NCBI GenBank assembly: GCA_049580385.1
Contig: JBAUPV010000006.1
Span: 64,529 to 128,528 of the forward strand
Origin: Desulfobaccales bacterium
Lineage (GTDB): Bacteria; Desulfobacterota; Desulfobaccia; Desulfobaccales; 0-14-0-80-60-11
Direction of reading: 5' to 3'
Length of the DNA: 64,000 nucleotides
The notes below the pieces were generated by a model. It made no database searches. It was not told the origin of the DNA and was given only the letters and a program-made list of their open reading frames with translations. Below are positions 1,574 to 9,571 of this stretch, in pieces (within the stretch, counting starts at the first letter, position 1; the number at the start of each line of letters is the position of its first letter). A program made the position numbers and the translations under genes.

Positions 1574-1795
1574 ATGTCAAAACCGGAGGAGATGTGGCAG
1601 TGCCAGGTTACCAACTGTGGCTATATTTATGACCCGGCCCGCGGGGATAAGAAGGGCAAGATCCCTCCGGGAACCCGTTTTGAGGACCTCCCTGAAGACT
1701 GGAAGTGCCCATGCTGCGGGTCGACCAAGAAAATGTTCCGACCCCTGGCAGGGCCCGGTTCGGTGGCCGAGCAGCCGAGCCATTGCGACACCTGA
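1574..1795 (+). CDS. rub: rubredoxin with a short C-terminal extension
   Basis: [14 protein letters not shown]...[19 protein letters not shown] shows the two CxxC knuckles typical of rubredoxin. AAGGAGG lies upstream. The start could be 1550, 1574 or 1592. Confidence 0.85.
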
Positions 1796-1827
1796 CCCCC
1801 AACCAATCAAATTAGAAGGAGCAAAAC

Positions 1828-2202
1828 ATGACCGAGAAATTGCAGGTTTACAAATGTCAGATCTGTGGAAACATAGTGTCCATGCTGCATTCTGGAGACG
1901 GGGCCCTGGTATGTTGCGGCGAGCCCATGAAACTTATGCTGGAAAACACGGTAGATGCTGCCAAGGAAAAGCATGTGCCGGTTATCGAGAAGACCGCCGG
2001 GGGCTTTAAAATAAAGGTGGGGAGCGTCGCCCATCCCATGGAGCCGAGCCACTACATCGAATGGATCGAGGTCATTGCCGATGGTAAATCCTACCGCCAA
2101 TTCCTGAATCCAGGAGGGGCGCCGGAAGCCACCTTCCCCATCGAGGCTAAGGAAGTGGTGGCGCGGGAATATTGTAATCTGCACGGTCTCTGGAAGGCCT
2201 AA
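1828..2202 (+). CDS. dfx: desulfoferrodoxin (2Fe superoxide reductase)
   Basis: The N-terminus has a desulforedoxin-like CxxC...CC motif ([10 protein letters not shown]...LVCCGEPM). The SOR domain follows (KHVPVIE...[13 protein letters not shown]...CNLHGLW). Confidence 0.9.
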
Positions 2203-2205
2203 CCA

Positions 2206-3126
2206 TTGAAGCAATGGTGGCGCAATCGCGATTTTATCCTGGTCTCGGCGGTGATTAGCGGGCTGGTTGCGGGGCGCGGGGCAAGCTGGACCCAGCCGCT
2301 GGTCCTCCCGGCCCTGGCGGTGGTCATGACCCTCTCGACGATGGGGGTTAGAACAGAGGTGCTGCGGTCCCCCCGGGAGTTGTGGCGTCCGGCGCTGGCC
2401 GGCTTAGTTTTGAATTATCTGATGTTGGGCGGGATTCTCCTGGGGTTGAGCTTCCTGATGATCCGGGAACCCGCCATGAAAGACGGATTCGTCCTGCTGG
2501 TGGCGGTGCCGCCGGCTATCGCGGTTATCCCCTTTACCGACTGCTTGGGAGGCAATACCACTTTTTCTCTCCTGGCCACCGTGGCGTGCTATCTGGCGGC
2601 CCTGATCCTTACTCCGTTAATCGCCATCGGATTTTTGGGCTCAGGCTTCTTTGAAACCCGGTCCCTCGCCATGGTGATCGTGGAGTTGATTGTGGCGCCA
2701 CTGCTCATCTCCCGGGTATTGCTCTCGACCTCTCTGGCCACTCGCCTGGAACCCATCAAGGGGGCCATCACCAATTGGGGCTTTTTTGTCGTCATGTACA
2801 CGATTATCGGGTTGAACCGGGAGTTAATTCTGGGGCAGCCCTTCACCCTGGCGCCGGTGGCCGTCATCGCAGTTTTCAGCACCTTCCTCTTGGGTGCGGC
2901 GATCGACAGATTAGGGAGGTCAATGCGGATTGACCGGGCGACGCTGACCAGCCTGGTGCTTCTGGGAACCCTGAAGAATTATGGCATCGCCGGAGGCCTG
3001 GCCTTAGCTCTCTTCAGTAAAAGGACCGCCGTCCCGGCCACCGTCTCCAGTGTTTTCATGATTGTCTATATTATCTGGCTTAATTTCGAAAAGCGCCGGG
3101 CAACTCATCCTGCCATCAGTTCGTAA
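2206..3126 (+). CDS. bile acid:sodium symporter (BASS/ACR3-like) family membrane transporter
   Basis: About 9-10 hydrophobic helices, length near 300 aa, and a BASS-like pattern LTLSTMGVRTEVLRSPRELWRPALAGLVLNYLMLGG. TTG start. Confidence 0.55.
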   Translation: MKQWWRNRDFILVSAVISGLVAGRGASWTQPLVLPALAVVMTLSTMGVRTEVLRSPRELWRPALAGLVLNYLMLGGILLGLSFLMIREPAMKDGFVLLVAVPPAIAVIPFTDCLGGNTTFSLLATVACYLAALILTPLIAIGFLGSGFFETRSLAMVIVELIVAPLLISRVLLSTSLATRLEPIKGAITNWGFFVVMYTIIGLNRELILGQPFTLAPVAVIAVFSTFLLGAAIDRLGRSMRIDRATLTSLVLLGTLKNYGIAGGLALALFSKRTAVPATVSSVFMIVYIIWLNFEKRRATHPAISS

Positions 3127-3761
3127 AAGGACTCGATGGAGGGAAAGTCCGGGTGGGATTCGGCCTGCTGCCGGGAGCTCGATTTGGCCTTGAAGAGGAG
3201 GTGGCGGATGCCGGAAACCCGGGCCGCGGCCAGGGCCTCGGCATTGTCGTCCACCAACAGGGTGGAGCTGGGGTCAAATAGCAATCGCGCCTGCAGCACT
3301 TTCCAGAAGCGCACCTCCTCCTTGGGGGTTCCCAGGTCGAAGGAGGAGACCACTTCCTCGAAATAGGCGAGCAAGCCGGTCTGGTCCATCTTCAAGGCCA
3401 GGGTCTTGGTGTGGGCATTGGTCACCAGGGCCACCCTCTTCCCCGCTTTTCCCAGGAATTTCAGGAAATCTTCGGTGTCGGGGTGGACCTCGATGAGATG
3501 ACGGATGCCCTCTTTCAGCGCCGGGATATCGAGTTCCAGCTCGCGGGACCAGAAGTCGATGTCGGTCCAGTTGAGGGTGCCCTCCTCCCGCCGGTAGCGG
3601 GCGAAGAGCAGTTGCCGGGCCTCCGGCAAGGGGAGCGCCTGGCGCCGGGCATATTCCTCGGGCACCAGGGTTTCCCAGAAGTAGTCGTCAAAGTGTTTAT
3701 CGAGCAGGGTGCCGTCCATGTCCAGGAGCACCCAGGTAATGGTCTGCCAGGGGAATGCCAT
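3105..3761 (-). CDS. HAD-superfamily hydrolase (YrfG-like nucleotidase type)
   Basis: HAD motif I LLDMDGTLLD, motif II VTNA and a distal DD (LLVDDN). Confidence 0.7.
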   Translation of the reverse strand: MAFPWQTITWVLLDMDGTLLDKHFDDYFWETLVPEEYARRQALPLPEARQLLFARYRREEGTLNWTDIDFWSRELELDIPALKEGIRHLIEVHPDTEDFLKFLGKAGKRVALVTNAHTKTLALKMDQTGLLAYFEEVVSSFDLGTPKEEVRFWKVLQARLLFDPSSTLLVDDNAEALAAARVSGIRHLLFKAKSSSRQQAESHPDFPSIESFYELMAG

Positions 3762-3835
3762 GGGCTGTCCTTCCCAATCTCTTATTTTCCTTTTATTTAT
3801 AGATGATCCCGGGGATTTTTCAAGGGCGGAGGCCC

Positions 3836-3864
3836 TTGACTTCGGGATACGAGATACTTAAAAA
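3836..3864 (+). promoter_or_regulatory. candidate sigma70-type promoter for the hsp20 pair
   Basis: TTGACT (3836-3841), 17 nt, then TAAAAA (3859-3864), about 45 nt upstream of the ATG at 3909. The -10 box is weak. Confidence 0.3.
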
Positions 3865-3908
3865 AAATTGACGAGTATAAATTTTCGATAACGCGGAGGA
3901 GAAGGATT

Positions 3909-4364
3909 ATGCCTATAATTTTTCGGGAACCGGGGCCAACCCAGGATCCCCTCCGAGAGCTGGAGCAACTGCAGCGCCGCATGGACCGGCTCTTTCAGGG
4001 AGGCTTCGGCGTGGAGCGCTCACCCTGGCAGGTGGGAGTCTACCCCTTGGTGAATCTCTCCGAAGACCGGGATCATATCTATGTGCGGGCCGAACTGCCC
4101 GGGGTCAAGGCGGAAGACCTGGAAATCACTATCCAGGACGACAGTCTGATCCTGCGGGGCGAACGCAAGATCGCCTCAGAGGAAAAAGAGGTCAACTACC
4201 AGCGCCGGGAACGGGAATCGGGCTTTTTCCGGCGGGTGCTGGCCCTGCCTTCCCGAGTGCAGCCGGATAAGGTGGAGGCCACCTGCAAGGACGGCATCCT
4301 GACCATCAAGTTGGCCAAACCCGAAGAAGTCAAACCCCGGAAGATCAAGGTAAAGGTTGCCTGA
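3909..4364 (+). CDS. Hsp20/alpha-crystallin small heat-shock protein
   Basis: Alpha-crystallin domain: YPLVNLSEDRDHIYVRAELPGVKAEDLEITIQDDSLILRGER...GILTIKLAK. Confidence 0.9.
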   Translation: MPIIFREPGPTQDPLRELEQLQRRMDRLFQGGFGVERSPWQVGVYPLVNLSEDRDHIYVRAELPGVKAEDLEITIQDDSLILRGERKIASEEKEVNYQRRERESGFFRRVLALPSRVQPDKVEATCKDGILTIKLAKPEEVKPRKIKVKVA

Positions 4365-4373
4365 GGAGGATTC

Positions 4374-4775
4374 ATGGCTGAAAAGGAATTGCGGGCAAAG
4401 GCCAAGGCGGAGGCTCCGGCCAAGGGAGAGCGGGTTCGCCCCGGACGGGTCTTCCTGCCGGCGGTGGATATCTTCGAGACCCCCGAGGCCCTGGTAATGG
4501 TGGCCGACATGCCCGGGGTGGCAGCGGATAAAGTGACCGTGGACTTGCGGGACAATTACCTGGTCATCTCCGGCGAAGTGGGCGCACCGCTCGGCCAGGG
4601 CGAAACCATGGTGGATCAGGAATACCTCACCGGGGACTACATCCGGGAATTCCAACTGGGCAGTCTGATCAATCAGGAAAAGATCGAGGCCACCATGAAA
4701 GACGGGGTGCTGCGTTTGGTGCTGGCCAAGGTGGAGCAGGCTAAACCCCGGAAGATCGCAGTGAAGGCCGCCTGA
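4374..4775 (+). CDS. Hsp20/alpha-crystallin small heat-shock protein (second copy)
   Basis: PAVDIFETPEALVMVADMPGVAADKVTVDLRDNYLVISGE...GVLRLVLAK. It starts 10 nt after the first hsp20. Confidence 0.85.
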   Translation: MAEKELRAKAKAEAPAKGERVRPGRVFLPAVDIFETPEALVMVADMPGVAADKVTVDLRDNYLVISGEVGAPLGQGETMVDQEYLTGDYIREFQLGSLINQEKIEATMKDGVLRLVLAKVEQAKPRKIAVKAA

Positions 4776-4844
4776 TCGAGGCGAAAATAACCCACCGGCT
4801 GCGGGGAAGCGGCAGTCCCGGACCGGCTTGGCAAGGAGAGTACC

Positions 4845-5813
4845 TTGAAGGCCATTCGCGTCCACTCATTTGGCGAGCCCGAGGTCATGCGCCTCGAAGA
4901 GGTGCCTGAACTTAAGGCTGGTCCCGGCCAGGTCCTGGTCAAGGTCCAGGCGGCCGGGGTCAATCCGGTGGATACCTACATCCGGGCCGGGGCCTATGCC
5001 GCCGCCCCGCCCCTGCCTTACACCCCGGGCACGGATGCCGCCGGGGAGGTTGAGGCCGTGGGGCCGGGGGTCAGAACGGTGGCCCCCGGCGACCGGGTCT
5101 ACACCTCCAACACCGTGAGCGGCGCCTACGCTGAAAAAACCCTGTGCCTGGAATCCCAGGTCCACCCTTTGCCGCCCCAGGTCACCTTTGCCCAGGGGGC
5201 CGGGGTGAACGTGCCCTATGCCGCGGCCTACCGGGCCCTGTTCCAGCGCGCCAGGGCGGTGCCCGGGGAGGTGGTGCTGGTCCACGGGGCCAGCGGCGGC
5301 GTGGGGGTGGCGGCCACGCAACTGGCCCGGGCCGCAGGACTGACTGTCATCGGCACTGCGGGCACCGACGCCGGGCGGCGCCTGGCCTCAGAGCAAGGGG
5401 CGCACTATGTACTGGACCATGGCGCCGAGGGCTATCTTCAGGAAGTCATGCGGCTGACGGATAATCGCGGCGCGGATGTCATCCTGGAGATGCTGGCCAA
5501 CGTCAATCTGGGCCGTGACCTGGAGGTCCTCGCTGCTGGGGGACGGGTGGTAGTCATCGGCAGCCGGGGTACGGTGGCCATTGACCCCCGCCAGGCCATG
5601 GTCCGGGAGGCCTGCATCCTGGGGATGGCTATCTTTGCCACCACGGAAAAGGAGACAATGAGCCTGCACGCAGCCCTGGGCGCCGGGCTGGCCAACGGCA
5701 CCCTGCACCCGGTGGTGGGCCGGGAGCTCCCCCTGGCTGAGGCCGCCCGGGCGCATCACGACATCATGGAAACCAGGGCCTACGGTAAGATAGTCTTAAT
5801 TCCCAGAGGCTAA
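4845..5813 (+). CDS. qor: NADPH:quinone oxidoreductase (zeta-crystallin/MDR family)
   Basis: MKAIRVHSFGEPEVMRLEEVP...GVNPVDTYIRAG... and the Rossmann motif VLVHGASGGVG. TTG start. Confidence 0.8.
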   Translation: MKAIRVHSFGEPEVMRLEEVPELKAGPGQVLVKVQAAGVNPVDTYIRAGAYAAAPPLPYTPGTDAAGEVEAVGPGVRTVAPGDRVYTSNTVSGAYAEKTLCLESQVHPLPPQVTFAQGAGVNVPYAAAYRALFQRARAVPGEVVLVHGASGGVGVAATQLARAAGLTVIGTAGTDAGRRLASEQGAHYVLDHGAEGYLQEVMRLTDNRGADVILEMLANVNLGRDLEVLAAGGRVVVIGSRGTVAIDPRQAMVREACILGMAIFATTEKETMSLHAALGAGLANGTLHPVVGRELPLAEAARAHHDIMETRAYGKIVLIPRG

Positions 5814-5869: not shown

Positions 5870-5893
5870 GGGAGCTGCGGCTCCCCTTTTTTT
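5870..5893 (+). terminator. intrinsic terminator after qor
   Basis: GGGAGC-TGCG-GCTCCC stem-loop (5870-5885), then C and T7 (5887-5893). Confidence 0.65.
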
Positions 5894-6018
5894 GAGGAAA
5901 AGCCGGGCGCCTGCGGGTTCCCCCGTTTGGCGCCTGGCTATATTCTAAATAGGTGCTTACCATCAAGGCGAATTCGTTAAGAGAATACATTTGGGCTATT
6001 TAATCTAAGGAGATCAAG

Positions 6019-7386
6019 ATGATAGCCTTTGAGAACGAGCAGTATCTTCCCTGCGATTTGGCCACTATCGTCAGTACCAGGGAAAGGAAAATATTGCCTT
6101 CTTATGAAGCCCAGCTCTATCACCAACTAGAAATGGTTGTATATCCCATGCACCAGGGATTTTATATCGGGAGCGGCGGCGGCTCTTTTTATGTAGATTC
6201 ATTAAATTTACTTAGGGCCTTGAAGGGGAAGAGCGCGCGCGAGGTCTGTCAGAATGAAGGGGATTTCCAGGAAATAGAACAATACTATCATCATGGTCTT
6301 ATCGGTTTCGAGGAAAATGAGCACGGCCAGCTCGTGGAAATGCCGGTGGCCAAGAAATATCTCGACTTGTATGAGGACCTGGAAACCACCTGGTTCTGCC
6401 ACATTCCCCACAAGATAGAAATTGATATTACGCAAAAATGCAACTTGACGTGTATCCATTGCTCCCGAAATGCTTCTCCGGCCCAGCCGGAAGACAAAAT
6501 TTCCCTGCAGAATTTGATCGATTTCCTGGATCAGGCCGGAAAACTAGGGGTTCCATCAGTGGCCTTCATGGGAGGGGAACCCACCAGCCATCCCGAATTT
6601 ATCGAGTTGGCCGTGATCGCCAAGTATGCCGGCATAAAAGACCTGTCCACCAGTACCAATGGCTATTTGATTGAAGAAGAGTTAGCCGAGAAAATGGCCG
6701 CTCTGTTCGGCGCCGTCCAGGTGAGCATCCATGGTGCGACTAGCGAGACCCATGAGAGGATCACCCGCAGGCCCGGGTCATTCGTCCGGGCCTGTAATGC
6801 CGTTAAGTTATTACGCAAACATAACGTTCATGGTTTGAATATTTCTTTTACGGTAATGGAGGATAATTTTCTGGAAATGCCGCAGATGGTGCAACTTGCC
6901 AAAGAGCTGAATGCTGATTTTGTTCGCTTCCTGGTGCTCTTTTCCCAGGGTCGGGCTAAAGGGCTGCACCAATGGTCTGAAACGGAAAAGAATGAAATAG
7001 GACAGGCCATTACCTCTCTGCGCCAAAAAAACCTCGGTTATGTGAGGGTTGAGGCGGGGGGCTTCCCTCCCTATTATGAACTCCCCAAGGATGCCGCGTT
7101 TTACGGCTGCCCGGCCGGCAGGACCTTGCTGGCGGTCAATGCGGACGGCCAGATGGGGCCATGCAGTAACCTTGATCTTACCTCAGGCAATATCCAGGAC
7201 CATGGCATCATGGAGGTTTGGCACAGTTCTTCTATGCGGGAACTGCGAAAGAGGCCAACCTGCAACTGCTCTTACACCCCGGTGTGCTCCGGTGGTTGCC
7301 TGGCCAATCCTAATTGGCAGAACATGTTCTTCCCCAAAAATGGAGGGGTAAATCATGGATCAAGAGCACCTAAAGCGTGTGGTTGA
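6019..7386 (+). CDS. radical SAM/SPASM-domain enzyme, candidate peptide maturase
   Basis: CNLTCIHC (aa 141-148, nt 6439-6462) is a CxxxCxxC motif. The C-terminus reads CPAGRTLLAVNADGQMGPC...CNCSYTPVCSGGC, which is SPASM-like (Cx12Gx4C ... CxCx5Cx3C). An N-terminal extension of about 135 aa could be a peptide-recognition domain. SD AAGGAG is present. Sampled lines are about 42-45% GC. Confidence 0.85.
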   Translation: MIAFENEQYLPCDLATIVSTRERKILPSYEAQLYHQLEMVVYPMHQGFYIGSGGGSFYVDSLNLLRALKGKSAREVCQNEGDFQEIEQYYHHGLIGFEENEHGQLVEMPVAKKYLDLYEDLETTWFCHIPHKIEIDITQKCNLTCIHCSRNASPAQPEDKISLQNLIDFLDQAGKLGVPSVAFMGGEPTSHPEFIELAVIAKYAGIKDLSTSTNGYLIEEELAEKMAALFGAVQVSIHGATSETHERITRRPGSFVRACNAVKLLRKHNVHGLNISFTVMEDNFLEMPQMVQLAKELNADFVRFLVLFSQGRAKGLHQWSETEKNEIGQAITSLRQKNLGYVRVEAGGFPPYYELPKDAAFYGCPAGRTLLAVNADGQMGPCSNLDLTSGNIQDHGIMEVWHSSSMRELRKRPTCNCSYTPVCSGGCLANPNWQNMFFPKNGGVNHGSRAPKACG

Positions 7387-7654
7387 GCAAACTATTACAG
7401 AGGAACTCACCAGATTCAAACAGGATTTTCTCCTGGACCTGGGCCGCTTGGTGGGACAGTTGGCGGGCTGTGATTCGCAAGAGGGTTGTTGTCAACAACA
7501 GGGCTGCTGCAAACAGGAAGGGTGCTGTTCCAGGACACACGACCTGCCCAACTTAGTCGGAGAACGAATGGATATACTGGAAGAATTTATCCTCAGCCAC
7601 AAGGAACCCATAGTCAAATTTTTCAAAGCTCGCGGCGTGGAGCTGGGATTCTGA
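7355..7654 (+). CDS. Cys-rich (GCCxxx)n repeat small protein, paralog 1 (candidate rSAM substrate)
   Basis: 99 aa. The core is GCDSQE-GCCQQQ-GCCKQE-GCC (aa 38-58, nt 7466-7528). SD GGAGGGG lies 6 nt upstream. The start overlaps the rSAM gene by 32 nt. The C-terminal tail ILSHKEPIVKFFKARGVELGF is shared with paralogs 2 and 3. Confidence 0.7.
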   Translation: MDQEHLKRVVEQTITEELTRFKQDFLLDLGRLVGQLAGCDSQEGCCQQQGCCKQEGCCSRTHDLPNLVGERMDILEEFILSHKEPIVKFFKARGVELGF

Positions 7655-7667
7655 GGAGGTATCTCTC

Positions 7668-7985
7668 ATGAGTAAAGAAGAGCAATCCATCAAAAGCATT
7701 GTGGAACAGGTAATCAAAGAGGAAGTGCCCAGAATCATCCAGCAGGTAGCCTCCGGGATCAGACATCCTTATTTTTACTTGGGAGCTTTAGATCAGGGCT
7801 GCTGCGCCGACCAGGGATGTTGCAGAAATTACGGCTGTTGCAGAGATCAAGGCTGTTGCGTCAAACAGAAGGGGGTTATGGAATTAATCGCGGACCGCCC
7901 TGCTGACATGGAGGCTTATATCATCTCTCACAAAGAGGAGGTCAGGCAATTTTTCAAAGAAAGAGGCGCTGAGCTTAAGCTTTAA
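7668..7985 (+). CDS. Cys-rich (GCCxxx)n repeat small protein, paralog 2
   Basis: 105 aa. The core is GCCADQ-GCCRNY-GCCRDQ-GCC (aa 44-64, nt 7797-7859). SD GAGGAGG is present. It starts 13 nt after paralog 1. Confidence 0.75.
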   Translation: MSKEEQSIKSIVEQVIKEEVPRIIQQVASGIRHPYFYLGALDQGCCADQGCCRNYGCCRDQGCCVKQKGVMELIADRPADMEAYIISHKEEVRQFFKERGAELKL

Positions 7986-8011
7986 TCGCCGTAAAGGTCA
8001 AAAGAACATCA

Positions 8012-8071
8012 TTAGCCACCCGGAACCTCTGGTCATATTTACAAGGCCACGGCGTGGAGCCTGGCTTCTGA
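8012..8071 (+). pseudogene. decayed 3' fragment of a paralog-1-like Cys-repeat gene
   Basis: 8012-8083 aligns with the last 60-70 nt of paralog 1 plus its junction to paralog 2. Compare tagccacccggaacctctggtcatatttacaaggccacggcgtggagcctggcttctgaggag with cagccacaaggaacccatagtcaaatttttcaaagctcgcggcgtggagctgggattctgaggag. Indels are present and no 5' part remains. Confidence 0.45.
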
Positions 8072-8083
8072 GGAGTCATCTTT

Positions 8084-8395
8084 ATGAGTAAAGAAGAGCA
8101 TTCCATCAAAAGCGTGGTGGAGCAGGTAATAAAGGAAGAAGTGCCCAGATTTATTCAGCAATTAGCCACGGGGGTCAGATATCCCTACCTGGGAGCTTTA
8201 GCCCAGGGCTGCTGCGCCGATAAGGGCTGTTGCAGAGTTCAGGGGTGTTGTGGCGATCAAGGCTGTTGCTCAAAACAAAGGGGCGTTATGGAGTTAATCG
8301 CGGACCACCCTGCCCGTCTGGAAGCTTACATCATGTCCCACAAAGACGAGGTTATGAAATTTTTCAAACAAAGAGGGGTTGAACTTAATCTTTAA
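8084..8395 (+). CDS. Cys-rich (GCCxxx)n repeat small protein, paralog 3
   Basis: 103 aa. The core is GCCADK-GCCRVQ-GCCGDQ-GCC (aa 42-62, nt 8207-8269). It is clearly alignable to paralog 2 along its whole length. SD GAGGAG is present. Confidence 0.75.
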   Translation: MSKEEHSIKSVVEQVIKEEVPRFIQQLATGVRYPYLGALAQGCCADKGCCRVQGCCGDQGCCSKQRGVMELIADHPARLEAYIMSHKDEVMKFFKQRGVELNL

Positions 8396-8584
8396 ATACT
8401 TAAGGTGTCGTCATTCCTTCAAGATAATAAAACGACTTCAAGTATTATCTTTATATATAAAAATCCTAACCCGTCTGATAGATTATCCGACTGACCGACC
8501 ATAGATATAGGGCGCAACTCTCATCAGCCCTGAGACATTTGGCTCGCAGAATCGATTGAGACCGGCATGGCGATATGAGCAGAA

Positions 8585-8995: not shown

Positions 8996-9571
8996 ATGGA
9001 AACTTCCCCTATTCAGGCCAGCAACGATTGGGTGAGAACCCTTCTGCTGCTGGGGGTCTTGACGGTCTGGGTTGCGCTCCCCGGCGTGGCGGCGGCCTAT
9101 TTAAGCGTAGGTGAGCCGGCCCCGTTTTTTAGCGTGGAATCCGGAGATGATGAAAATCTCACGCTGGATATGCTCAGAGGCAAAGTAATAATCCTCTTCT
9201 ATGAAACCCGGGAGGTGGTAAGGAAGAACCGGGAGTTCAAGGATTATCTAAAGAGCCTGTACAATGGCCTGCCGGAGGCTGTTCAGGAAAATGTCTTCAG
9301 ATTGGTGGTGATCAATTGTTTGGATGCGTCCTTCGCGACCAGGCCCATTTGGAGAATGAAGTTAAGGGAAGCCTCCGAGAGACAGGGGATGACCATTTAC
9401 GGAGATTGGACCGGCGACATGCTTAGAGATTACCAGATGCAGGACGACGAAAGTAATTTCCTGGTTATCGACAAGAACGGCATCATAAGATATATGGCCA
9501 CCGGGTTAATAGAAAGAAGCCAGTTTGAAAAGCTTAAGGAGATGCTGCTAAACCTGGCTAATAATAAGTGA
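8996..9571 (+). CDS. exported thioredoxin-fold (redoxin/YtfJ-like) protein lacking a CxxC
   Basis: Signal/anchor LLLLGVLTVWVALPGVAAA. A redoxin-like beta-strand pattern follows (VGEPAPFFSVES...LRGKVIILFYETREVV), with no Cys where CxxC normally sits. The GC content is lower than the flanks. Confidence 0.4.
   Translation: METSPIQASNDWVRTLLLLGVLTVWVALPGVAAAYLSVGEPAPFFSVESGDDENLTLDMLRGKVIILFYETREVVRKNREFKDYLKSLYNGLPEAVQENVFRLVVINCLDASFATRPIWRMKLREASERQGMTIYGDWTGDMLRDYQMQDDESNFLVIDKNGIIRYMATGLIERSQFEKLKEMLLNLANNK

What the first reader, a model, noticed from the sequence alone, without database searches (positions are those of the whole stretch)
7466..8269. Strict 6-residue periodicity of vicinal Cys-Cys pairs, with variable spacers and synonymous codon drift
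Seen: the cores are as follows.
- P1: GC DSQE GCC QQQ GCC KQE GCC
- P2: GCC ADQ GCC RNY GCC RDQ GCC
- P3: GCC ADK GCC RVQ GCC GDQ GCC

Gly-Cys-Cys is invariant, but its codons differ between copies and repeats (ggc/ggt/ggg/gga; tgc/tgt). The three spacer residues vary and are mostly polar (Q, D, K, R). That pattern indicates selection at the protein level rather than a DNA repeat artefact.

Inference: there are several possible chemistries.
- Ladder-like thioethers from Cys to spacer Asp/Gln side chains or alpha-carbons, by analogy with repeated Cys-to-Asp links in some ranthipeptides and in QhpC.
- Vicinal disulfides.
- A thiolate-rich metal or cluster site (6-8 Cys in about 21 residues, metallothionein-like).

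The core is internal, with about 37 residues following it. This is atypical for leader-core RiPPs.
Basis: partly seen in the sequence, partly recalled or inferred. Interest (0 to 1): 0.75.

Follow-up and report, generated by a model that had tools for sequence, protein, structure and literature searches.

The report
Radical-SAM-modified Cys-Cys repeat proteins
Three small tandem genes encode proteins with a strictly six-residue Gly-Cys-Cys repeat, and they are almost certainly substrates of the radical-SAM enzyme encoded just upstream; this enzyme-substrate family is undescribed and also occurs in the model archaeon Methanosarcina acetivorans.

Summary
P1 (7355-7654), P2 (7668-7985) and P3 (8084-8395) are real genes under purifying selection (dN/dS 0.06-0.24). 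Each carries 3-4 Gly-Cys-Cys triplets spaced exactly six residues apart.

They lie directly after, and are translationally coupled to, a 455-aa radical SAM/SPASM enzyme (6019-7386). This enzyme has an N-terminal peptide-recognition (RRE-like) domain. The pairing recurs in every related locus recovered.

Exhaustive searches found only about 35-50 relatives. They share a leader motif (E-E-hydrophobic-x-R-hydrophobic) 23-33 residues upstream of the first Cys-Cys, and the repeat itself. Their C-terminal parts differ: the helical tail seen here, a second kind of tail, or no tail (classical leader-core peptides).

The true repeat unit is x-[Asp]-x-Gly-Cys-Cys. Asp/Asn/Glu/Gln fills 93% of internal spacer position 2. 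An edge test ties this residue to the Cys pair that follows it.

Best reading: a RiPP-like system in which the enzyme installs thioether cross-links from Cys to the upstream Asp-type residue. The orientation matches NxxcB. The product is probably a stapled, thiol-rich intracellular small protein. The chemistry is inferred, not shown.

No Pfam, NCBIfam, PDB or literature description was found. I rate it a new variant of a known kind.

The parts
5870..5895 (+). Terminator-like hairpin plus T-run after the upstream Zn-dependent dehydrogenase gene. It suggests that the cassette is its own transcription unit.
   Evidence: Consensus scan; sequence.
6019..7386 (+). Radical SAM/SPASM peptide maturase, 455 aa. 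Its stop codon lies 32 nt inside P1, which implies translational coupling.
   Evidence: Pfam Radical_SAM 7e-24 and SPASM 3e-10. No NCBIfam model reaches its cut-off. AF2 model pLDDT 91.5. Foldseek top matches are SkfB, SuiB, CteB, PqqE and anSME.
6130..6291 (+). RRE-like leader-binding domain of the maturase (aa 38-91; three strands followed by three helices).
   Evidence: Secondary structure of the model. Foldseek aligns 434-450 columns with SuiB, an RRE-containing enzyme solved with its precursor peptide. Inference, not a binding test.
6439..6462 (+). CX3CX2C radical-SAM cluster motif (C141-N-L-T-C145-I-H-C148).
   Evidence: Translation. The three Cys are invariant in 30 homologues.
7108..7299 (+). 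SPASM auxiliary-cluster cysteines: C364, C382 (CX12GX4C), C415, C417, C423 and C427.
   Evidence: Alignments. C364, C382, C415, C417 and C427 are invariant in 30 homologues; C423 is nearly invariant (90% or more).
7355..7654 (+). P1, 99-aa substrate protein. GGAGGGG Shine-Dalgarno sequence upstream. Leader motif EELTRF at nt 7400-7417. Core GC-DSQE-(GCC-xxx)2-GCC at nt 7466-7528. Helical tail from nt 7529.
7668..7985 (+). P2, 105-aa substrate protein. Leader motif EEVPRI at nt 7719-7736. Core (GCC-xxx)3-GCC at nt 7797-7859.
7990..8083 (+). Decayed copy of the P1 3' end plus its intergenic ribosome-binding site (frameshifted). It is a scar of the duplication that produced P3.
   Evidence: Alignment A6.
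8084..8395 (+). P3, 103-aa substrate protein. Leader motif EEVPRF at nt 8135-8152. Core (GCC-xxx)3-GCC at nt 8207-8269.

Best explanation
P1, P2 and P3 are ribosomally made substrates of the radical SAM/SPASM enzyme encoded immediately upstream, forming a two-component RiPP-like system.

Proposed mechanism, with the status of each step:
1. Shown by comparison: the enzyme and the small proteins form an obligate, translationally coupled pair that moves between unrelated genomic contexts in bacteria and archaea.
2. Inferred from anatomy: the enzyme's N-terminal RRE-like domain binds the conserved leader element (E-E-hydrophobic-x-R-hydrophobic). This element lies 23-33 residues upstream of the first Cys pair.
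3. Inferred by analogy with NxxcB, PapB, QhpD and CteB: a substrate Cys thiolate binds an auxiliary Fe-S cluster. The 5'-deoxyadenosyl radical abstracts a hydrogen from the carbon next to the side-chain carbonyl of the Asp/Asn/Glu/Gln three residues upstream. A thioether forms, once per x-D-x-G-C-C unit, giving a ladder of small rings.
4. Open: the second Cys of each pair either stays free as a thiolate or is linked elsewhere, for example to the invariant Gly alpha-carbon.
5. Inferred: no protease or exporter travels with the cassette, and the 38-residue helical tail is more conserved than the leader. The product in this subfamily is therefore probably an intracellular, cross-linked, thiol-rich small protein rather than a secreted antibiotic. 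A redox or metal-handling role is a weak lead only.
For: Pairing:
- An rSAM/SPASM gene abuts or overlaps 1-4 GCC-hexad ORFs in the window and in L001, L003, L005, L006, L013, L099, L118-120 and L173. L014 holds a C-terminal fragment of such an enzyme, cut by the contig end, followed by three tandem copies.
- In L096 (M. acetivorans), L102 and L103 the peptide gene lies 260-360 nt upstream of the enzyme gene.
- The flanking genes are otherwise unrelated.
- 80 loci with more distant rSAMs contain no such ORF.

Enzyme type:
- CX3CX2C motif and SPASM domain.
- Model pLDDT 91.5 with an N-terminal strand-strand-strand-helix-helix-helix domain.
- Best structural matches are the RiPP maturases SkfB, SuiB (full length) and CteB.

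One enzyme family serves several substrate layouts. The L013 rSAM is 35% identical over its full length, and the L014 fragment is 46% identical. What the substrates share is the leader motif and the Cys-Cys units.

Acceptor-like residue:
- Spacer position 2 is D in 61, Q in 11, N in 8 and E in 5 of 91 spacers.
- The residue at -3 of the first Cys pair is D/N/E/Q in 88% of arrays (D 69%).
- The residue at +2 after the last Cys pair is D/N/E/Q in 58% (D 21%).
- The same D-x-x-C-C spacing appears in the single-unit relatives 'GDYSCC' and 'GDYGCC'.

Precedents:
- NxxcB makes a beta-thioether from Cys to an upstream Asn in N-x-x-C and tolerates Asp and Gln (PMC9389541).
- PapB makes six Cys-Asp thioethers in repeated CXXXD motifs (PMC12373016).

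Real genes: dN/dS 0.06-0.24.

Predicted shape: helix, then a disordered Cys-rich core, then a small helical tail.
Against: - No chemistry has been observed. The thioether assignment rests on analogy.
- The enzyme scores far below the cut-offs of the PapB, StsB, SkfB and all other curated NCBIfam models. Its highest partial scores are to AhbD/NirJ-type enzymes, which do not modify peptides.
- Window P1 and its close orthologues use Gln, Glu or Lys rather than Asp at spacer position 2 (QQQ, KQE, EKQ). P3 has a Val there (RVQ).
- A third substrate class of the same enzyme clade (…AVCCPSFSL) has a Cys pair but no Asp-type residue nearby. The element common to all classes is therefore Cys-Cys, not Asp.
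- There are two Cys per unit but only one acceptor-like side chain.
- RRE-leader binding is inferred from fold and motif conservation, not tested.
Confidence: 0.55

Rival explanations
1. Sactipeptide-type chemistry. The Cys sulfurs are linked to alpha-carbons, most plausibly of the invariant Gly, as in the Cys-Gly sactionines made by StsB. This could occur alone or together with Asp links, giving two donors and two acceptors per hexad.
For: Gly before each Cys pair is invariant. StsB installs three Cys-Gly sactionines (PMC10288494). The StsB model is among the better partial NCBIfam matches for this enzyme clade, at 96-120 bits. SkfB is the top PDB match.
Against: The StsB cut-off is 625 bits, so it is not met. 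Known sactipeptides place donors and acceptors in separate halves of a hairpin, whereas here they interleave every six residues. This model does not explain the strong Asp preference or its edge behaviour. Gly may be kept for conformational reasons alone.
Confidence: 0.15
2. A reaction specific to the vicinal Cys-Cys pair itself that has no described precedent. Examples would be an intra-pair S-C link or heterocycle, or conversion of one Cys. Asp would then serve only in positioning or solubility.
For: Cys-Cys is the only core element common to all three substrate classes of the enzyme clade: GCC hexads, CVGDYSCCG and AVCCPSFSL. No curated rSAM family matches.
Against: Nothing points directly to a particular reaction. 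The Asp-type residue is conserved as strongly as many catalytic determinants in classes A and B.
Confidence: 0.12
3. A metallothionein-like or Fe-S/Cu-thiolate-binding small protein whose function is metal or redox buffering through free thiolates. The neighbouring rSAM would not cross-link the Cys, or would act only as a chaperone or cluster donor.
For: There are 7-8 Cys in 21 residues, with Asp/Lys/Gln between them. No exporter or protease is present. Peroxide- and metal-stress genes lie nearby in the window (desulfoferrodoxin, rubredoxin, HSP20s, an AhpC-like gene), in L001 (Fur plus rubrerythrin) and in L004 (AhpC plus OsmC).
Against: This does not explain the obligate, translationally coupled rSAM with an RRE-like domain and the conserved leader motif. 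There is no hit to any metallothionein family. The stress-gene neighbourhood is absent in L006, L013, L096, L100 and L173.
Confidence: 0.1
4. A precursor of a peptide-derived small-molecule cofactor (PQQ- or mycofactocin-like), in which the protein is a sacrificial scaffold.
For: PqqE and MftC are among the partial matches.
Against: No accessory genes for excision or tailoring (peptidase, oxidoreductase, glycosyltransferase) travel with the cassette. The core is repeated 3-4 times, there are multiple paralogues, and the tail is conserved and foldable. These features argue for a protein product.
Confidence: 0.05
5. Non-coding or artefactual repeat: an 18-nt DNA tandem repeat or an RNA element.
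For: Weak 18-nt periodicity is detected.
Against: dN/dS is 0.06-0.24. Each ORF has a strong Shine-Dalgarno site. Protein-level conservation extends across bacteria and archaea with synonymous drift. There is no Rfam hit.
Confidence: 0.01

Closest known systems
NxxcB/NxxcA (streptococcal RaS-RiPP; beta-thioether in an N-x-x-C motif)
   Same: Both have an rSAM/SPASM enzyme and an adjacent leader-containing peptide. In both, the acceptor (Asn, with Asp and Gln tolerated) lies three residues N-terminal to the donor Cys. That spacing and orientation match the D-x-G-C(-C) unit found here (PMC9389541).
   Different: No sequence-family membership could be shown for the enzyme. Here the unit is repeated 3-5 times at a strict six-residue period. 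The donor is a vicinal Cys pair. The substrate can carry a conserved folded C-terminal domain. The hosts are anaerobic Desulfobaccales and Methanosarcina rather than streptococci.
PapB/PapA (freyrasin; ranthipeptide)
   Same: A repeated short Cys/Asp motif is modified several times by one rSAM/SPASM enzyme. PapA has six CXXXD units, giving a ladder of small thioether rings (PMC12373016).
   Different: The orientation is opposite: Cys precedes Asp in PapA, whereas here Asp goes with the following Cys pair. PapA has a single Cys per unit. The PapB NCBIfam model scores 65.7 bits against a cut-off of 340.
StsB/StsA and other sactisynthases (SkfB, CteB)
   Same: RRE plus rSAM plus SPASM architecture. 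SkfB and CteB are among the closest structural matches. Cys-Gly links are known for StsA, and Gly is invariant here.
   Different: The StsB, SkfB and AlbA models all score far below cut-off. The core does not have a hairpin arrangement of donors and acceptors.
QhpD/QhpC (Cys-to-Asp/Glu thioethers in a subunit of quinohemoprotein amine dehydrogenase)
   Same: This is a precedent for an rSAM/SPASM enzyme cross-linking Cys to Asp/Glu in a small protein that stays a functional protein rather than becoming a secreted peptide. This point rests on general knowledge; QhpD is mentioned.
   Different: No qhpA/qhpB-type dehydrogenase genes lie nearby. QhpC has no repeat periodicity. No sequence relation was detected.
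Metallothioneins and other Cys-rich metal-binding peptides
   Same: High Cys density with CC and CxC motifs, polar spacers, and a predicted disordered core in the apo form.
   Different: No family match. Metallothioneins do not have a dedicated rSAM maturase, a leader motif or a strict hexad.

Membership tests
RRE-dependent radical SAM/SPASM RiPP systems (generic class) | CX3CX2C radical-SAM cluster motif in the enzyme | tested here: met
   The motif is C141-NLT-C145-IH-C148. The Cys are invariant in 30 homologues. Pfam Radical_SAM 7e-24.
RRE-dependent radical SAM/SPASM RiPP systems (generic class) | C-terminal SPASM domain with auxiliary-cluster cysteines | tested here: met
   Pfam SPASM 3e-10, above the gathering score. 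CX12GX4C and CxCx5Cx3C motifs are conserved. Only six Cys are conserved in the SPASM region.
RRE-dependent radical SAM/SPASM RiPP systems (generic class) | Peptide-recognition (RRE/PqqD-like) domain | tested here: inconclusive
   The AF2 model has a three-strand, three-helix unit at aa 38-91, with pLDDT above 90. It aligns over its full length with the RRE-containing SuiB. No PqqD Pfam hit appears at E<1, and binding was not tested.
RRE-dependent radical SAM/SPASM RiPP systems (generic class) | Adjacent small precursor gene(s) with a conserved leader and a variable core | tested here: met
   1-4 adjacent peptides occur in every locus of the family. A leader motif lies 23-33 aa before the first CC in most members of classes A, B and C.
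RRE-dependent radical SAM/SPASM RiPP systems (generic class) | Leader protease and/or exporter in the cluster (typical, not universal) | tested here: not met
   No protease or transporter family recurs next to the cassette. Isolated cases only: tricorn protease in L003, a DegP-type protease in L099, and an uncharacterised 428-aa ORF with a hydrophobic N-terminus after the enzyme gene in L105.
Ranthipeptides (PapB / NxxcB / CteB / QhpD type) | Non-alpha (beta or gamma) thioether between Cys and an acceptor side chain | not testable with these tools
   This needs MS/MS and NMR of the modified product.
Ranthipeptides (PapB / NxxcB / CteB / QhpD type) | Cys donor and Asp/Asn/Glu/Gln acceptor at a fixed short spacing in the core | tested here: met
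   D/N/E/Q fills spacer position 2 in 85 of 91 spacers. The edge test ties it to the downstream Cys pair.
Ranthipeptides (PapB / NxxcB / CteB / QhpD type) | Enzyme passes a curated ranthisynthase model (NCBIfam NF047865, PapB family) | tested here: not met
   65.7 bits against a cut-off of 340. Clade relatives score 59-71 bits.
Sactipeptides | Enzyme passes a curated sactisynthase model (StsB NF045574, SkfB TIGR04403, AlbA NF012164) | tested here: not met
   For the window enzyme, StsB scores 96.4 against 625 and SkfB 66.8 against 300. For clade relatives, AlbA scores 69.5-78.5 against 850.
Sactipeptides | Cys-to-alpha-carbon thioethers, usually in a hairpin with donors and acceptors in separate halves | tested here: not met
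   The layout part was tested: Cys residues are interleaved every six residues with no separate acceptor half. The bond type itself is not testable here.
Named Cys-rich rSAM peptide families in NCBIfam (SCIFF, ACGX-repeat, SynChlorMet, GeoRSP and others) | Precursor or enzyme reaches the family's curated score | tested here: not met
   The precursors have no NCBIfam or Pfam hit. The window enzyme scores 68.9 against 400 for ACGX, 108.5 against 400 for ScmE and 96.8 against 400 for GeoRSP.
Metallothioneins | Match to a metallothionein family; metal-thiolate cluster formation | tested here: not met
   No Pfam family matches at E<1. Metal binding is not testable here.
Peptide-derived cofactor pathways (PQQ, mycofactocin) | Companion genes (pqqB/C/D/F or mftB/D/E/F) and the characteristic precursor C-terminus | tested here: not met
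   None of these genes lies in the neighbourhoods. PqqE scores 86 against 381 and MftC 104 against 265.

The most novel reading that the evidence does not exclude
The cassette makes a new kind of product: an intracellular small protein whose (x-D-x-G-C-C)n loop is converted by a single radical SAM enzyme into a ladder of fused small rings, using both Cys of each pair (for example one to Asp C-beta and one to Gly C-alpha), or into a previously unseen Cys-Cys-derived structure. This product would serve anaerobes (sulfate reducers, methanogens) as a covalently stapled thiolate, metal or redox buffer. It would be, in effect, a post-translationally cross-linked metallothionein with a folded docking domain, shared between bacteria and archaea.
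Probability: 0.15. Interest if true: 0.85.

Novelty: new variant of a known kind. Interest (0 to 1): 0.62.

Why it matters
The logic of the system is familiar: a leader-guided radical SAM/SPASM maturase with an adjacent substrate. The substrate family is not.

- It has a strict six-residue x-D-x-G-C-C repeat with vicinal cysteines.
- It has an optional conserved folded tail.
- No exporter or protease accompanies it.
- It matches no curated family. It is very rare, with about 35-50 distinct sequences among billions.
- It nevertheless spans Desulfobaccales, Methanosarcina and other lineages.

If the chemistry is NxxC-like, this would be the first repeated, ladder-forming version of it, and a compact enzyme for multi-stapling Cys-rich peptides. 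If the Cys pair itself is the target, the enzymology would be new.

An orthologous pair exists in the genetically tractable M. acetivorans C2A (AAM04721.1 and AAM04722.1). Both the chemistry and the physiological role are therefore directly testable.

Tried and rejected
- Family scans: Pfam and NCBIfam scans of the three peptides and of ten relatives found nothing.
- Peptide structure: the AF2 model (pLDDT 60.6) gave no Foldseek match in the PDB.
- RNA: Rfam found nothing in the region or in the whole window. The RNA-only reading is rejected.
- Literature: eight searches used motif words, sequence strings, M. acetivorans accession numbers and topic terms. None found a description of the family. 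The supplements of the rSAM compendium paper are not held, and Hudson et al. 2019 is not held.
- GTDB genome scan with the enzyme profile: it returned mostly AhbD/NirJ-like rSAMs at 33% identity or less, with no GCC peptides. It was useful only as a negative control.
- Oxidative-stress link: I considered a functional link to the oxidative-stress genes near the cassette in the window, L001 and L004. The link is absent in L006, L013, L096, L100 and L173. I keep it only as a weak lead.
- P0037: this 1907-aa hit to the tail motif is a low-complexity artefact.
- Sigma-54 promoter upstream of the enzyme gene: I inspected the sequence by eye and found no convincing match.
Full report
**1. What is there**

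Window 7355-8395 (+ strand) holds three tandem small ORFs:
- P1, 99 aa, 7355-7654
- P2, 105 aa, 7668-7985
- P3, 103 aa, 8084-8395

Each is preceded by a strong GGAGG-type ribosome-binding site. P1 is GC-DSQE-GCC-QQQ-GCC-KQE-GCC. P2 is GCC-ADQ-GCC-RNY-GCC-RDQ-GCC. P3 is GCC-ADK-GCC-RVQ-GCC-GDQ-GCC. Gly and Cys codons vary between units.

All eight 'GCCxxxGCC' matches in the six-frame translation of the 64-kb window fall in these three ORFs. One hundred Markov simulations gave none. At the DNA level the 18-nt periodicity is weak, at 68-87% matches. No Rfam family matches.

Nei-Gojobori dN/dS is 0.18 for P2/P3, 0.23 for P1 against its L006 orthologue, and 0.06-0.24 for other pairs.

**2.

A 455-aa ORF at 6019-7386 lies directly upstream and overlaps P1 by 32 nt. 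It has a Radical_SAM domain (7e-24) and a SPASM domain (3e-10). It carries the CX3CX2C motif C141-x3-C145-x2-C148 and conserved SPASM cysteines.

No curated NCBIfam model reaches its cut-off. The best partial scores are:
- AhbD 133 against a cut-off of 500
- ScmE 108 against 400
- MftC 104 against 265
- StsB 96 against 625
- PapB 66 against 340

With a 30-sequence alignment, AlphaFold2 gives a confident model (pLDDT 91.5). Its N-terminal unit at residues 38-91 has three strands followed by three helices, the layout of a RiPP recognition element. Foldseek ranks the RiPP maturases first:
- SkfB, 4.6e-21
- SuiB, about 1e-18, aligned over 434-450 columns, that is, including its RRE
- CteB, followed by PqqE and anSME

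A terminator-like hairpin at 5870-5895 separates the cassette from the upstream dehydrogenase gene. The cassette has 46-50% G+C against 58-71% in the flanks, which suggests acquisition as a unit.

**3. Relatives**

A word-indexed search of 5.8 billion protein clusters with the three-sequence profile found only 11 proteins. An exhaustive HMMER search of 1.84 billion representatives found 34. The family is therefore very rare. The window's own proteins are labelled 'Desulfobaccales bacterium' MAG in public data.

In every locus with enough sequence, the peptide genes abut an orthologous rSAM/SPASM gene:
- L001: 1 copy
- L003: 4 copies
- L005: 1 copy
- L006: 2 copies
- L099: 3 copies
- L014: 3 copies after an enzyme fragment cut by the contig end
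- L013: 1 copy
- L118-120: 3 copies around the enzyme gene
- L173: 1 copy

The surrounding genes differ from locus to locus.

As a negative control, 80 loci from GTDB genomes with more distant rSAMs (33% identity or less) contain no GCC-hexad ORF in any frame.

A 55%-identical enzyme occurs in Methanosarcina acetivorans C2A (AAM04721.1) and in M. siciliae. A 114-aa 'hypothetical protein' (AAM04722.1, UniProt Q8TR78) lies about 290 nt upstream of it. This protein carries CGC-VKDQ-GCC-QDK-GCC… and the same type of C-terminal tail.

**4. Anatomy of the substrates**

Three features can be separated.

(a) A leader. All classes share an element of the form (E)-E-hydrophobic-x-R-hydrophobic. Examples are EELTRF, EEVPRI, EEFTRL, VVFTRI and TVVRFS. 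It lies 23-33 residues before the first Cys pair.

(b) The core. Over 47 distinct peptides and 91 internal spacers:
- position 1 is variable;
- position 2 is Asp 61, Gln 11, Asn 8 and Glu 5, which is 93% D/N/E/Q;
- position 3 is Lys 41 and Gln 25.

An edge test shows which Cys pair the Asp belongs to. The residue three before the first Cys pair of an array is D/N/E/Q in 88% of arrays (Asp 69%). The residue two after the last pair is D/N/E/Q in only 58% (Asp 21%). The repeat is therefore best written x-D-x-G-C-C.

(c) The C-terminal part. This differs between subfamilies:
- The window's subfamily has a 38-residue tail (…ILEEFILSHKEPIVKFFKxRGVEL). It is more conserved than the leader and is predicted to form three short helices with pLDDT 74-81. 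The core is predicted disordered, with pLDDT below 50.
- A second subfamily has an unrelated tail (…ALDPKLL).
- A third has no tail and is a classical 59-69-aa leader-core peptide.

The enzymes next to these variants are 35-46% identical to the window enzyme over their full length, including the N-terminal domain. The leader and the Cys-Cys units are thus what the enzyme family has in common. The tail is an optional functional module.

**5. Wider clade**

Enzymes 32-36% identical to the window enzyme sit next to single-unit cores. One type is …C-V-G-D-Y-S-C-C-G-x-V-P, often with a B12-binding rSAM downstream. Another is …A-V-C-C-P-S-F-S-L. P0025/L105 (…G-D-Y-G-C-C… plus the SNKEP-type tail) bridges the hexad class and the 'GDYSCC' class.

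The D-x-x-C-C spacing is the same as in the hexads. The AVCCPSFSL class lacks an Asp-type residue, which leaves Cys-Cys as the only universal element.

**6. Mechanism**

Shown: an obligate enzyme-substrate gene pair, a maturase-type fold, a conserved leader and a conserved x-D-x-G-C-C unit.

Inferred: the RRE-like domain binds the leader. A substrate Cys binds an auxiliary cluster. The 5'-deoxyadenosyl radical abstracts a hydrogen next to the Asp/Asn/Glu/Gln side-chain carbonyl. A thioether closes a small ring in each unit.

The orientation and spacing match NxxcB. That enzyme links Cys to the beta-carbon of an Asn three residues upstream and tolerates Asp and Gln (PMC9389541). Repetition of a short Cys/Asp unit recalls PapB, which has six CXXXD motifs (PMC12373016), but in PapA the Cys comes first.

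The role of the second Cys and of the invariant Gly is open. Cys-Gly sactionines are known from StsB (PMC10288494). A two-donor, two-acceptor scheme per hexad is therefore possible.

I put about 0.8 on 'substrate of the adjacent rSAM, modified in the core', about 0.55 on 'thioether cross-links', and less on the exact NxxC-like regiochemistry.

**7. Biological role**

No protease or exporter travels with the cassette, the proteins have no signal peptide, and the tail is conserved. This points to an intracellular modified small protein, with QhpC as a conceptual precedent.

Redox-stress genes surround the cassette in the window: rubredoxin, desulfoferrodoxin at 1828-2202, two HSP20 genes, a Zn-dependent dehydrogenase at 4845-5813 and an AhpC/TSA-like gene at 8996-9571. 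L001 has Fur plus rubrerythrin, and L004 has AhpC plus OsmC. L006, L013, L096, L100 and L173 have none. A redox or metal role is therefore only a weak lead.

**8. Comparison and novelty**

The system works like a leader-guided rSAM/SPASM thioether synthase system. It fails every curated membership test for named families: PapB, StsB, SkfB, AlbA, ACGX, SCM, GeoRSP, MftC and PqqE. The precursors match nothing in Pfam, NCBIfam or the PDB. Eight full-text searches, including sequence strings and the M. acetivorans accessions, found no description.

I classify it as a new variant of a known kind, with an untested possibility of new Cys-Cys chemistry. Interest is 0.62. It is a solid, experimentally tractable lead, helped by the M. 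acetivorans orthologue, rather than a demonstrated surprise.

Noticed in passing
window 7990-8083: The P2-P3 spacer is a decayed, frameshifted copy of the P1 3' end plus the P1-P2 intergenic ribosome-binding site. P3 therefore arose by duplication of a segment running from inside P1 through P2.
   Followed up: yes
window 6001-8500 versus flanks: The cassette has 46-50% G+C, against 58-71% in the flanking genes. Related cassettes sit in unrelated contexts. Together this is consistent with horizontal acquisition of a two-part module.
   Followed up: partly
window about 1574-5813 and 8996-9571 (gene calls taken from L007, offset 2646): The cassette sits in a run of stress genes: rubredoxin, desulfoferrodoxin (1828-2202), two HSP20 genes (3909-4775), a Zn-dependent dehydrogenase (4845-5813), DUF2784, and an AhpC/TSA-like protein with an N-terminal hydrophobic segment (8996-9571). 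Similar neighbours occur in L001 and L004 but not in five other loci.
   Followed up: partly
L096:5368-5712 and L096:6001-7341 (Methanosarcina acetivorans C2A, AE010299.1, about 1.561-1.563 Mb): An orthologous pair exists in a genetically tractable archaeon: rSAM AAM04721.1 (55% identical) and a 114-aa 'hypothetical protein' AAM04722.1/Q8TR78. The latter has the CGC-VKDQ-GCC-QDK-GCC core plus an extra 'GKCPAEM…GCAGD' segment. Here the precursor gene is upstream of the enzyme gene.
   Followed up: partly
L100:7748-7978, L106, L108, L109, L110, L117, L123: More distant members of the enzyme clade pair with 55-76-aa peptides ending in C-[VK]-[GA]-D-Y-[SN]-C-C-[GS]-x-[VIL]-P. In L100, L101, L108 and L123 a B12-binding radical SAM gene follows immediately. 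This looks like a separate undescribed RiPP class.
   Followed up: partly
L113:2193-2315, L115, L121, L015:5422-5592 (minus strand; Saccharibacteria MAG): A third peptide class in the same enzyme clade ends in A-V-C-C-P-[SA]-F-S-L-x. It has a Cys pair but no Asp-type residue. This shows that Cys-Cys is the element common to all classes.
   Followed up: no
window 6037-6054 (enzyme aa 7-12): The N-terminal 'E-Q-[YF]-L-P-C' element of the enzyme has E7, P11 and C12 invariant in 30 homologues. Only six Cys are conserved in the SPASM region. Cys12 might therefore be an extra auxiliary-cluster ligand.
   Followed up: no
L006:4298-4591 and P0017: Some P2/P3-type relatives carry an extra C-P-x-C motif in the tail (ADCPACMEAY, AGCPECMEGY). 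The window proteins have ADRPADMEAY and ADHPARLEAY at that place.
   Followed up: no
P0005 (ENA contig of 6232 nt) versus window 8084-8395: P0005 is a P3-type allele, identical to P0001 over its first 72 residues. Its C-terminus switches to the +1 frame, matching window ORF 8230-8382. This is a frameshifted copy or an assembly error in another metagenome.
   Followed up: no
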